DNA of 64,000 nt from Escherichia coli (GCF_024700885.2 NZ_CP117016.1); one strand, 5' to 3'; shown: positions 9,350 through 11,112, counted from the first letter of the stretch. The notes: generated by a model not told the origin, from the letters alone. A program made the numbers and translations.

Positions 9350-9500
9350 GGTGACTGCTCCCCGCCCTGTCGGGCGAGGCTTCCCACTTCTTAAGCCGCA
9401 ACCGTCTGTGTGACGGATTTACGCTGGCCTCCATGGGCAGAAACGACGAGTCCCGCCGCTTGTAATTCCAGTATGCCCTTGCGTTTGATGTTGAGCGCCG
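9334..9500 (-). ncRNA. Predicted omega-RNA (reRNA) of TnpB: scaffold overlapping the tnpB 3' end and right end, guide from about 16 nt of flanking rhmR DNA (CTTGATCACCAGGAAA on minus strand)
   Basis: Inferred from the known architecture of IS200/IS605 TnpB systems; right-end hairpin 9360..9379 lies 12 nt past the tnpB stop. 5' boundary not determinable from sequence. Confidence 0.3.
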
Positions 9501-10560
9501 CGTTGATATCGCGGTCATGTTCAACTCCACACTCTGGACACTGCCAGATGCGCTTATGTAATGGCATCTCCGACATTTTGTGACCGCAGCAGTGGCAGGT
9601 CTTCGAACTGGCGAACCATTGATCCAGTTTCACCAGATGCACACCTTTCTCTGTTGCTTTGTATTCCAGTTTTGTGATGAATCCAGACCATCCAGCATCG
9701 CCTATCGCACGAGCCAGATGGTGATTTTTCATCATATTTGCCGTTTTCAATGTCTCGACAATTACCGCTTGGTTTTCGTCAACAATTGCGCGAGATAACT
9801 TGTGCTGGAAATCGGCACGGGCACTGGCTACCCGTTCGTGAACGGCTGCAAGTTGTATTCTGGCTTTGCGCCTGTTTGCGCTCCCTTTTTTCTTACGGGA
9901 CAGTGCTTTCTGCTTCCGGCGCAGGTTGCGACTTGCATTGATTAGGTGGCGGGGACTGGCAATTTTATTGCCGTCCGATTTGATGACAAAATGCGCCAGC
10001 CCCATATCCAGCCCTGTCACATTTGATATCAGTGCGGGCTTTGCCGGCGCTTCCATCCCGTCGTCACAGAGTAACGACGCGTAGTATTTCCCGGTTGCGC
10101 TGCGGCTCAACGTGATACTTTTCAGCATTCCCGTAATTTCACGATGTAAACGCGCTTCAATCGGCAAGATTTTCGGTATTTTTATCGCACCATCAAGGAC
10201 TTTTATGCCAACACAATGATAGCTCGATTGTCTGCCGTGTTTACTTTTAAAGGTTGGTTTACCTGCTTTCAGTTTCGGATTGAAAAAGTTAGAAAAAGCC
10301 ACGTCGAGGTTAATTACCGCCTGCTGCAACGCAATAGAATCATATTCTTTAAGCCATCCATACCGGCGGGATTTCTTCGCCACTGCAAGCAGTGGTTTGA
10401 GGTCTTTACGCGGGTTTAAATTTACGCGGTGCCGCTGGTAAGAATGTTTCTTGATATGCAGAGCTTTGTTGTACGCAAAACGCACTGCACCGAACTGGGC
10501 GTTGATAAATTCAGCCTGTTCTGGTGTCGGGTAGATGCGTACTTTTGTTGCTCTTAACAT
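9391..10560 (-). CDS. tnpB: TnpB (OrfB_IS605; RuvC-like RNA-guided endonuclease)
   Basis: 389-aa ORF; N-terminal MLRATKVRIYPTPEQAEFINAQFGAVRFAYNKAL; RuvC-I GLDMGL, RuvC-II VIVETL, zinc finger CHCCGH..CPECG, RuvC-III HDRDINAALNI all present. Confidence 0.93.
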   Translation of the reverse strand: MLRATKVRIYPTPEQAEFINAQFGAVRFAYNKALHIKKHSYQRHRVNLNPRKDLKPLLAVAKKSRRYGWLKEYDSIALQQAVINLDVAFSNFFNPKLKAGKPTFKSKHGRQSSYHCVGIKVLDGAIKIPKILPIEARLHREITGMLKSITLSRSATGKYYASLLCDDGMEAPAKPALISNVTGLDMGLAHFVIKSDGNKIASPRHLINASRNLRRKQKALSRKKKGSANRRKARIQLAAVHERVASARADFQHKLSRAIVDENQAVIVETLKTANMMKNHHLARAIGDAGWSGFITKLEYKATEKGVHLVKLDQWFASSKTCHCCGHKMSEMPLHKRIWQCPECGVEHDRDINAALNIKRKGILELQAAGLVVSAHGGQRKSVTQTVAA

Positions 10561-10616
10561 AATCAGCGCTCATTGATATAATGCTTTTATTTTAACACCT
10601 TAGGTGAATATATCAA
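10561..10616. promoter_or_regulatory. Divergent promoter region of the IS (tnpA: extended -10 TGaTATAAT at 10574..10582 on plus; tnpB: -35 TTGATA at 10611..10616 and -10 TAAAAT at 10588..10593 on minus)
   Basis: 56-bp AT-rich spacer between divergent starts with sigma70-like hexamers at appropriate spacing on both strands. Confidence 0.45.
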
Positions 10617-11042
10617 TTGAGTAATCATGATGATTTACTGGCGGGATTTCTCCGCAAACGACACAGTGTCAGTAAGCTGGTTGTGCACCTTATTTTTACG
10701 ACAAAGTATCGACGCAAACTATTCGACAGTCAGATGATCGCTCAGTTGCGTGAGGCTTTTGGCTCCGCTGCGGCAAAGCTTGAATGCGAAATTATTGAGA
10801 TGGACGGGGAGCCAGACCATGTACACCTACTGGTTGCCTACCCGCCAAAACTGGCGGTCAGTGTGATGGTCAATAATTTAAAATCGGTATCATCACGTTT
10901 GCTACGCCAGCAGAACGCGCATTTACGTATGCAGAGTAAAACGGGGCTTTTGTGGTCGAGATCGTACTTTGTCTGTAGCACCGGAGGGGCAACGATTGAA
11001 ACGCTCAGAGCCTACGTTCAGAGTCAGTCAACACCTGATTGA
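10617..11042 (+). CDS. tnpA: TnpA (IS200-type Y1 HUH transposase)
   Basis: HUH motif HVHLLV, catalytic Tyr region LLWSRSYFVCSTGGATIETLRAYVQSQ, KYRRKLF N-terminal motif. Track start 10617 is a TTG; true start may be the in-frame GTG about 60 nt downstream. Confidence 0.88.
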   Translation: MSNHDDLLAGFLRKRHSVSKLVVHLIFTTKYRRKLFDSQMIAQLREAFGSAAAKLECEIIEMDGEPDHVHLLVAYPPKLAVSVMVNNLKSVSSRLLRQQNAHLRMQSKTGLLWSRSYFVCSTGGATIETLRAYVQSQSTPD

Positions 11043-11112
11043 TCTTTAAAGCCCTGCGGGCTTTTCGCCTTATATCCCCGCCCGCATTGGGCGAGGGTTT
11101 ACGGCGTTTTTC

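What the first reader, a model, noticed from the sequence alone, without database searches (positions are those of the whole stretch)
9350..11112. Complete IS200/IS605-family element inserted inside the rhmR regulator
Both halves of an IclR-type reading frame (N-terminal HTH ending RQRFLS at 11113; continuation LDHQENFCLWTRLVEL from 9349) flank about 1.76 kb carrying divergent tnpA (HUH HVHLLV, catalytic Tyr) and tnpB. There are no inverted repeats and no target duplication, but the same 20-bp hairpin (ccccgccc-loop-gggcgagg) lies in the same orientation 10 nt from one tip and 16 nt from the other. That is the single-strand 'peel-and-paste' architecture of this family. The element looks recent: both proteins intact, host frame restored exactly across the ends.
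Basis: partly seen in the sequence, partly recalled or inferred. Interest (0 to 1): 0.6.

Follow-up and report, generated by a model that had tools for sequence, protein, structure and literature searches.

The report
Known ISEc46 insertion in dead rhmR
This is an ordinary, already catalogued E. coli jumping gene (ISEc46, IS200/IS605 family, with its TnpA transposase and TnpB RNA-guided nuclease) sitting in the remains of the rhamnonate regulator gene rhmR, at the same spot in 63 other sequenced E. coli genomes.

Summary
A 1,763-bp element splits rhmR/yfaX. Removing it restores the intact allele exactly, with no target duplication and no terminal inverted repeats. It is 100% identical to elements that RefSeq annotates as ISEc46 (IS200/IS605 family). 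The same junction occurs in 63 of 5,426 complete E. coli genomes.

- The termini are 9351..11113, not 9350..11112. A G at each junction allows a 1-nt slip, which independent copies resolve.
- The hairpins lie 9 and 17 nt from the tips, not 10 and 16.
- rhmR is also truncated after about codon 165. A separate microhomology deletion removed rhmD and the 5' end of rhmT, so the host gene is a remnant.
- "Recent" is unproven, because the insertion is fixed in a whole lineage.

New detail:
- 21 of 22 independent left-end flanks show insertion 3' of 5'-TTAG.
- The guide and cleavage tetranucleotides (AAAC/TTAG, GAAG/TCAC) follow the IS608 pairing rule, with compensatory changes at the cleavage-proximal position.
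- The active strand lies on the lagging-strand template.
- The 3' end of tnpB plus the right end looks like a conserved ωRNA scaffold. Its predicted guide matches the empty rhmR site.

Novelty: already known. Interest is low.

The parts
9351..11113 (-). Complete ISEc46 element, 1,763 bp. The active 'top' strand is the window minus strand. The left end (LE) is at 11113 and the right end (RE) at 9351.
   Evidence: 100% identical to RefSeq-annotated ISEc46 copies. The termini were fixed from four independent copies and from the empty-site alignment. It is the only copy in the window.
11114..11117 (-). Target / left cleavage-site tetranucleotide 5'-TTAG-3' (CTAA on the + strand). This is host DNA lying inside rhmR codons 55-56. 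It is also the predicted TAM for TnpB.
   Evidence: 21 of 22 distinct LE flanks carry CTAA and one carries CTAG.
11097..11113 (-). LE tip, 17 nt: top strand CGAAAAACGCCGTAAAC. The last 4 nt, AAAC (11097-11100), are the left guide sequence GL.
   Evidence: Read directly from the sequence. Analogy to IS608 GL AAAG / CL TTAC. The position next to the hairpin foot pairs C:G with the G of TTAG.
11076..11096 (-). Left subterminal imperfect palindrome (IPL). Top strand: CCTCGCCC-AATGC-GGGCGGGG. It has a T·G on the top strand and a C·A mismatch on the bottom strand.
11048..11064 (.). Second small stem-loop (AAAGCCC-TGC-GGGCTTT), just after the tnpA stop codon and internal to IPL. It resembles the extra LE stem-loop described for IS608 and could act as a terminator for tnpA.
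   Evidence: Read from the sequence. The IS608 LE hairpin at +46 to +60 is described in PMC5934647. Function is inferred.
10617..11042 (+). tnpA, a Y1 HUH transposase of 141 aa with a TTG start. It is transcribed towards the LE.
   Evidence: NF033573 at 141 bits. DHVHLL aligns with DHIHIL, and the Tyr in LRAYVQ aligns with VKQYIEN of IS608 TnpA 2A6M. The same CDS is WP_000064874.1 in RefSeq.
10554..10616 (.). 56-bp divergent intergenic region with back-to-back sigma-70-like promoters. One is TTAACA-17-TATAAT on + (10554-10582), for tnpA. The other is TTGATA-16-TAAAAT on - (10616-10589), for tnpB.
   Evidence: Consensus scan, 11/12 and 10/12 matches. These are pattern matches only.
9391..10560 (-). 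tnpB, an RNA-guided RuvC endonuclease of 389 aa. It is transcribed towards the RE.
   Evidence: NF040570 at 342 bits. Full-length alignment to ISDra2 TnpB 8BF8/8EXA, E 3.6e-74, with GLDMG (D), VETLK (E), HDRDINAA (D) and CxxC...CxxC conserved.
9351..9461 (-). Predicted ωRNA (reRNA) scaffold core. It covers the 3' end of tnpB plus the RE, with helices at 9441-9461, 9383-9437 and 9360-9379.
   Evidence: Fold z = -2.7. In 6 relatives, 97.7% of cells are paired and 5 pairs show double changes, against 1.4 in shuffles. The last ~130 nt are 90-100% identical against ~75% elsewhere, and third-codon identity is ~0.75 against 0.55. There is no Rfam match. The RNA itself is inferred.
9380..9383 (-). Right guide sequence GR, GAAG on the top strand, immediately 5' of the right hairpin.
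   Evidence: Read from the sequence. Analogy to IS608 GR GAAT / CR TCAA.
9360..9379 (-). Right subterminal imperfect palindrome (IPR). Top strand: CCTCGCCC-GACA-GGGCGGGG.
   Evidence: It is conserved in relatives, with one compensatory change in L029.
9351..9359 (-). RE tip, 9 nt: top strand AGCAGTCAC. The last 4 nt, TCAC (9351-9354), are the right cleavage site CR.
9331..9350 (-). Host flank 3' of the RE. It is predicted to be transcribed as the ωRNA guide (CCUUGAUCACCAGGAAAAUU). Together with TTAG it matches the empty rhmR site.
   Evidence: Inference from the ISDra2 / ISGst model, in which the guide is the ~16 nt flanking the RE.
11114..11280 (-). rhmR/yfaX 5' fragment (codons 1-56, HTH).
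9036..9350 (-). rhmR/yfaX internal fragment (codon 56 to about 165). It ends at the deletion junction.

Best explanation
Window 9351-11113 is one complete copy of the catalogued insertion sequence ISEc46 (IS200/IS605 family, IS605-type divergent tnpA/tnpB layout). It sits in codon 56 of an rhmR (yfaX) gene that is already truncated.

Shown here:
- It is an insertion relative to the common allele, with no target duplication and no terminal inverted repeats.
- It lies 3' of 5'-TTAG on the strand that carries tnpB.
- That strand is the lagging-strand template.
- It encodes an intact HUH/Tyr TnpA and an intact RuvC/Zn-ribbon TnpB.
- Each end carries the same imperfect hairpin in the same orientation.

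Inferred from the IS608, ISDra2 and ISGst work:
- A TnpA dimer binds the two hairpins on single-stranded top-strand DNA. The 4 nt 5' of each hairpin (AAAC, GAAG) pair with the cleavage sites (TTAG, TCAC).
- TnpA cuts and rejoins to give a single-stranded circle and a sealed donor site. The circle re-inserts 3' of another TTAG at a replication fork.
- TnpB, loaded with an RNA made from the tnpB 3' end, the RE and about 16-20 nt of flank, cuts the vacated site (TTAG + CCTTGATCACCAGG...). Recombination with the sister copy then restores the element.
For: Identity and annotation:
- 100% identity to ISEc46-annotated elements. 455 genomes hold at least 80% of the element.

Insertion status:
- Joined flanks equal uninterrupted yfaX, 237/237.
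- The same junction is present in 63 genomes.

Proteins:
- TnpA and TnpB family scores, and conserved catalytic residues.

Ends and target:
- The hairpin motif occurs only at the two ends, with 0 expected by chance.
- There are no terminal inverted repeats.
- Independent copies at other sites share the 9351 and 11113 tips.
- The flank is TTAG in 21 of 22 cases.
- IS608 rules (CL TTAC/GL AAAG at 19 nt; CR TCAA/GR GAAT at 10 nt), read, are mirrored here (TTAG/AAAC at 17 nt; TCAC/GAAG at 9 nt). The position next to the hairpin foot keeps Watson-Crick pairing at both ends.
- GC skew of the + strand is -0.039 (z = -7), which places the top strand on the lagging-strand template (family bias as stated).

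ωRNA:
- Structure and conservation support.

Family activity:
- A 100%-identical copy lies on a 5.8-kb plasmid of a strain that also carries the rhmR copy.
Against: - Nothing contradicts the identification.
- No direct comparison with the ISfinder ISEc46 entry was possible.
- Mobility of this particular copy is not shown. It is fixed in its lineage, and no identical-flank empty site exists in 5,426 genomes.
- The ωRNA is predicted only. Rfam has no matching family. The covariation rests on six related sequences, and the structure was derived from that same alignment.
- HpyTnpB of IS608 was inactive in interference assays, so nuclease activity cannot be assumed for every TnpB.
Confidence: 0.95

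Rival explanations
1. The element is delimited as the first reader wrote (9350..11112). It would then insert 3' of TAGC, and the RE would end in CACC.
For: The empty-site alignment alone cannot tell the two registers apart, because G9350 equals G11113.
Against: Other copies match only from 9351 and extend through 11113. Four copies have G, C, A or T at the position equivalent to 9350. All have CG followed by CTAA beyond ...TTTTT. 21 of 22 flanks fit TTAG|.
Confidence: 0.03
2. The copy is an immobile relic. The proteins or ends may be subtly defective, or TnpB may be kept for a host-level role, so the element no longer transposes or homes.
For: - It is fixed at one site in 63 genomes, with no empty-site sibling.
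- Many relatives are solo tnpB genes without tnpA on plasmids.
- IS608 TnpB lacked interference activity in one study.
Against: - Both ORFs are full length, with catalytic residues intact.
- Both ends and guide sequences are intact and identical to copies at other sites, including a plasmid in the same strain.
- Genomes carry up to 5 places matching the element.
Confidence: 0.12
3. The 1.76 kb is native sequence, and the uninterrupted allele is a deletion derivative.
For: None beyond the formal possibility.
Against: - 3,915 genomes have the uninterrupted allele, against 63 with the insert.
- The same 1,763 bp occurs at unrelated chromosomal and plasmid sites and in other genera, always next to TTAG.
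Confidence: 0.01

Closest known systems
ISEc46 (ISfinder name, as used by NCBI PGAP and MobileElementFinder; IS200/IS605 family)
   Same: The DNA is identical (100% over 1,763 bp) to elements whose tnpA RefSeq names 'IS200/IS605-like element ISEc46 family transposase' (WP_000064874.1) and whose tnpB is WP_000942662.1. This includes copies at the same rhmR site.
   Different: Nothing detectable. The ISfinder reference entry itself could not be consulted, so its published ends and target could not be compared with the 9351/11113 termini and the TTAG target derived here.
IS608 of Helicobacter pylori (the mechanistic model of the family)
   Same: - A Y1 HUH TnpA, aligned at E 3.5e-20 with the HUH motif and Tyr in register.
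- Subterminal imperfect palindromes in the same orientation at both ends.
- Cleavage sites a fixed distance from the hairpin feet.
- A 4-nt guide 5' of each hairpin.
- Insertion 3' of a tetranucleotide, with no duplication.
   Different: - tnpA and tnpB are divergent here (IS605-type layout) rather than co-directional.
- The target is TTAG rather than TTAC, and the RE end is TCAC rather than TCAA.
- The guides are AAAC and GAAG rather than AAAG and GAAT.
- The spacings are 17 and 9 nt rather than 19 and 10 nt.
ISDra2 of Deinococcus radiodurans (TnpB / reRNA model)
   Same: - TnpB aligns over its full length (E 3.6e-74), with the equivalents of D191, E278 and D361 and the Zn ribbon conserved.
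- The tnpB 3' end abuts the RE, as required for an RE-derived guide RNA.
   Different: - The TAM/target is TTGAT in ISDra2, against TTAG here.
- The genes overlap and are co-directional in ISDra2.
- The ωRNA and nuclease activity were shown experimentally for ISDra2 and are only predicted here.

Membership tests
IS200/IS605 family (IS605 group) | Encodes a small Y1 HUH transposase (TnpA) with an HUH motif and a single catalytic Tyr | tested here: met
   NF033573 at 141 bits against a cutoff of 55. The HVH of DHVHLL and the Tyr of LRAYVQ align with IS608 TnpA H64/H66 and Y127.
IS200/IS605 family (IS605 group) | Accessory tnpB encoding a RuvC-type nuclease with a Zn ribbon | tested here: met
   NF040570 at 342 bits against a cutoff of 100. 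It falls below the stricter NF038281 cutoff (383 against 425). Full-length alignment to ISDra2 TnpB with D/E/D and CxxC...CxxC kept.
IS200/IS605 family (IS605 group) | No terminal inverted repeats | tested here: met
   No inverted repeat pairs the two tips.
IS200/IS605 family (IS605 group) | No target-site duplication; excision would restore the target exactly | tested here: met
   Joined flanks are 237/237 identical to intact yfaX in one piece.
IS200/IS605 family (IS605 group) | Subterminal imperfect palindromes at both ends, in the same orientation on one strand | tested here: met
   Hairpins at 9360-9379 and 11076-11096, both on the + strand, with 0 expected by chance. They carry a T·G on the top strand and a C·A mismatch on the bottom strand.
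IS200/IS605 family (IS605 group) | Insertion 3' of a specific 4-5 nt target that abuts the LE | tested here: met
   TTAG abuts the LE in 21 of 22 distinct flanks across E. coli, Proteus, Klebsiella, Pluralibacter, Xenorhabdus, Photorhabdus and Phaseolibacter.
IS200/IS605 family (IS605 group) | Guide tetranucleotides 5' of each hairpin that are complementary to the cleavage sites | tested here: met
   AAAC/TTAG and GAAG/TCAC follow the IS608 pattern (AAAG/TTAC, GAAT/TCAA), with Watson-Crick pairing at the -1 position. This is sequence logic only. The pairing itself was not observed.
IS200/IS605 family (IS605 group) | Active (top) strand lies on the lagging-strand template | tested here: met
   Window + strand GC skew is -0.039 (z = -7), so the minus (top) strand is the G-rich strand, i.e. 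the lagging-strand template. The bias is stated. This is a statistical tendency of the family, not a strict criterion.
IS200/IS605 family (IS605 group) | Single-strand 'peel-and-paste' transposition through a circular ssDNA intermediate | not testable with these tools
   Needs in vitro cleavage/strand-transfer assays or detection of the circle junction.
TnpB-ωRNA (OMEGA) RNA-guided nuclease system | A structured RNA from the tnpB 3' end plus the RE, reading into the flank as a guide | tested here: inconclusive
   Fold z = -2.7. A conserved structure with 5 compensatory pairs in 6 sequences. Excess nucleotide and third-codon conservation over the last ~130 nt. No Rfam family matches, and there is no RNA data.
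ISEc46 (specific ISfinder entry) | Sequence identity to the ISfinder reference | not tested
   Only indirect evidence: 100% identity to DNA whose tnpA PGAP labels 'ISEc46 family'. ISfinder is not available through these tools.

The most novel reading that the evidence does not exclude
The chromosomal ISEc46 copy may be an active homing unit. Its TnpB-ωRNA would be permanently programmed against the intact rhmR allele (TAM TTAG + CCTTGATCACCAGGAAAATT). It would then both lock the element into this lineage and cut any incoming wild-type rhm locus, blocking repair of the decayed operon by recombination. As a by-product, ISEc46 TnpB would be an E. coli-native nuclease with a 4-nt TTAG TAM.
Probability: 0.3. 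Interest if true: 0.3.

Novelty: already known. Interest (0 to 1): 0.1.

Why it matters
It matters little beyond correct annotation. The element, its family and its mechanism are textbook, and the same insertion is already annotated in dozens of RefSeq genomes.

Three practical points follow:
- The rhm (L-rhamnonate) locus of this lineage is doubly inactivated, by the IS and by a deletion. The annotated 394-aa 'MFS transporter' is a chimeric remnant.
- The rhmR::ISEc46 junction is a clean lineage marker, present in 63 of 5,426 complete genomes.
- The derived TTAG target, the guide/cleavage pairs and the predicted ωRNA guide give ready-made reagents for testing an E. coli-native TnpA/TnpB pair.

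Tried and rejected
- Rfam scan of 8900-11500 at E <= 1 found no family, so no curated ωRNA model covers this element.
- Literature searches for ISEc46 returned only resistome/mobilome listings, with no mechanistic study or stated target site. A search for TnpB with TTAG gave only false hits such as 'TtAgo'.
- I searched for a second copy or remnants in the window (tblastn and blastn) and found none.
- I tried to date the IS relative to the rhmR-rhmT deletion. 143 genomes have the deletion and 80 of those lack the IS. The no-IS genome I examined (TA8571, one of the 99.1%-identity top hits) is about 2% divergent in the flanks. It is therefore not a sister of the IS lineage, and the order of events stays unresolved. 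I dropped the initial idea that the deletion clearly came first.
- I considered that TnpB cleavage caused the nearby deletion. I rejected this as unsupported: the junction lies about 315 bp from the RE, it uses a 12-bp microhomology, and the same junction occurs in IS-free genomes.
- An internal promoter-like site in tnpB (9989-9962) was considered as an ωRNA promoter. It lies about 600 nt upstream of the RE and nothing supports it.

Full report
**What is in the sequence.**
Between the two parts of an IclR-type frame on the minus strand lie two divergent ORFs. One is 141 aa, on the + strand at 10617-11042. The other is 389 aa, on the - strand at 9391-10560.

The motif CCCCGCCC-N(4-5)-GGGCGAGG occurs only twice in the 64-kb window, at 9360-9379 and 11076-11096. 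Both copies are on the + strand, and none is expected by chance. No inverted repeat links the two tips.

**It is an insertion, and a known one.**
- The 1,763 bp are 100% identical to DNA in many complete E. coli genomes. RefSeq annotates that DNA as 'IS200/IS605-like element ISEc46 family transposase' plus 'RNA-guided endonuclease InsQ/TnpB', flanked by the same IclR fragments.
- 785 of 5,426 genomes have some match, and 455 hold at least 80% of the element.
- With the element removed, the flanks match uninterrupted yfaX (rhmR) 237/237 in a single piece, in 3,915 genomes. So there is no target duplication and no loss of host bases.
- A query across the left junction is covered in full in 63 genomes. 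The insertion is therefore a lineage marker, not a private event.

**Proteins.**
- The 141-aa product scores 141 bits on NF033573 (cutoff 55). It aligns with IS608 TnpA so that DHVHLL falls on the HUH motif and the Tyr of LRAYVQ falls on Y127.
- The 389-aa product scores 342 bits on NF040570. It aligns end to end with ISDra2 TnpB (8BF8/8EXA, E 3.6e-74), and the three RuvC acidic residues and both CxxC pairs are conserved.
- The 56-bp spacer holds back-to-back sigma-70-like promoter matches (pattern only).

**Exact termini and target.**
G9350 equals G11113, so the empty-site alignment leaves a 1-nt ambiguity. Independent copies resolve it:
- Copies at other sites match only from 9351 and extend through 11113.
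- Four full copies (this window, an IncHI1B plasmid, a 5.8-kb plasmid, and a chromosomal yebE-ptrB site) have G, C, A or T at the position of 9350. All begin GTGACTGCT and end ...TTTTTCG.
- The element is therefore 9351..11113.

An exact-match scan of one genome per species with the LE terminal 25-mer returned 19 loci in seven genera. Together with the copies above they give 22 distinct LE flanks. Of these, 21 read CTAA and one reads CTAG. On the other strand, this means the element lies 3' of 5'-TTAG.

**Architecture on the active strand.**
Read on the window minus strand, the element is:

TTAG | CGAAAAACGCCGT-AAAC-[CCTCGCCC AATGC GGGCGGGG] ... tnpA (antisense) ... tnpB (sense) ... GAAG-[CCTCGCCC GACA GGGCGGGG]-AGCAG-TCAC | CCTTGATCACC

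This is the IS605-type layout: the LE lies beside tnpA, and tnpB reads out through the RE.

The published IS608 rules are as follows (PMC3201880, PMC5934647):
- The cleavage site TTAC lies 19 nt 5' of the left hairpin.
- Each site is recognised by the 4 nt 5' of the hairpin (AAAG, GAAT).

Here the spacings are 17 and 9 nt, and the pairs are AAAC/TTAG and GAAG/TCAC. The first three positions match IS608. The position next to the hairpin foot has changed on both partners at both ends (G:C to C:G, and T:A to G:C). This independently supports the termini and the same recognition code. The pairing itself is inferred.

The + strand GC skew is -0.039 (z = -7). The top strand is therefore the G-rich strand, which is the lagging-strand template. 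This is as expected for this family.

**TnpB guide RNA (inferred).**
In ISDra2, an RNA of about 150 nt from the tnpB 3' end and the RE carries about 16 nt of flank as guide. It directs cleavage of the TAM-flanked donor joint. Meers et al. showed that this preserves the element after excision.

The evidence here is as follows:
- The corresponding RNA folds better than shuffled controls (z = -2.7).
- Six relatives at 75-92% identity share a structure in which 97.7% of cells are paired. Five pairs changed on both sides, against 1.4 in shuffles and 0-2 in slid controls.
- The last ~130 nt are 90-100% identical, against ~75% for the rest of tnpB.
- Third-codon identity is about 0.75 there, against 0.55 elsewhere.
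- Rfam has no match.

The predicted guide is CCUUGAUCACCAGGAAAAUU (9350 down to 9331), with TAM TTAG. Together they match the intact rhmR site.

This support is modest. There are few sequences, the structure was derived from the same alignment, and the RE hairpin is also a TnpA signal.

**State of the host gene.**
- The rejoined frame equals YfaX residues 1-165 with one substitution, then runs out of frame to a stop.
- Alignment to IAI39 shows a deletion between rhmR codon ~165 and rhmT codon ~54. It removes rhmD, and its junction is a 12-bp microhomology, GCCTGCTCCCAG, at 9024-9035.
- The deletion junction is present in 143 genomes. 80 of these have an empty IS site, and 63 + 80 = 143, so every IS carrier also has the deletion.
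- One no-IS genome I examined, TA8571, is about 2% divergent in the flanks. No genome has identical flanks and an empty site. The order of the two events therefore cannot be decided.
- For the same reason, 'recent' cannot be claimed for the insertion. The family does appear active, because a 100%-identical copy sits on a small plasmid of a strain that also has the rhmR copy.

**Verdict.**
The element is the already catalogued ISEc46, at a site already annotated in RefSeq. Added here are the 1-nt correction of the ends, the TTAG target, the guide/cleavage logic, the strand bias, a predicted ωRNA, and the finding that rhmR is also truncated. Novelty: already known. Interest is low.

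Noticed in passing
window 9024-9035 (junction); remnants at 7908-9092 and 9036-9350: A separate deletion fuses rhmR (after about codon 165) to rhmT (from about codon 54) at a 12-bp microhomology, GCCTGCTCCCAG, and removes rhmD entirely. The same junction is in 143 complete genomes. One of them, TA8571, has flanks about 2% divergent from the window, so the deletion is either recurrent or has been transferred between lineages.
   Followed up: partly
window 7908-9092 (-): The 394-aa ORF that RefSeq annotates as an intact 'MFS transporter' is chimeric. 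Its start and first residues come from out-of-frame rhmR sequence, and the native RhmT N-terminus (about 54 codons) is missing.
   Followed up: partly
L008 7457-7503 and L009 3370-3416 (Phaseolibacter flectens NZ_JAEE01000001.1): Two identical 47-bp mini-elements at different sites, each next to TTAG. Each consists of the ISEc46 RE tip (9 nt), a single hairpin and the LE tip (17 nt). They look like minimal hairpin-only derivatives (PATE-like). They lack a separate right guide sequence.
   Followed up: partly
L027 741-1916 (IncI plasmid pP44, between ardA and psiA); L026 741-1910 (IncY plasmid, next to dam); L029 1517-2704: Solo tnpB genes, about 69-81% identical to ISEc46 tnpB, with a conserved RE but no tnpA. 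They sit in plasmid leading regions and on an IncY replicon, and hundreds of plasmid records carry them.
   Followed up: no
L030, L032, L033 at about 301-600 (IncI plasmids, beside pilV/shufflon); hits H96, H97, H133-H136: Remnants of the tnpB 3' end plus the RE, and 38-bp RE-only matches at 100% identity, recur at fixed positions on IncI-type and other plasmids.
   Followed up: no
L005 2249-3462 (E. coli IAI39): In IAI39 the neighbouring rhmD is split by an IS3-family element. The rhm locus is therefore being inactivated by different events in different lineages.
   Followed up: no
L012-L020 (Proteus faecis TJ1636 contigs): At least nine exact ISEc46-type LE ends, most at gaps or stored-sequence edges. 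This suggests a large expansion of an ISEc46-like element in this Proteus genome.
   Followed up: no
window 9962-9989 (-): A sigma-70-like promoter match (TTGTCA-16-TAAAAT, 10/12) inside tnpB, in the sense direction, about 600 nt upstream of the RE. Its significance is unknown.
   Followed up: no
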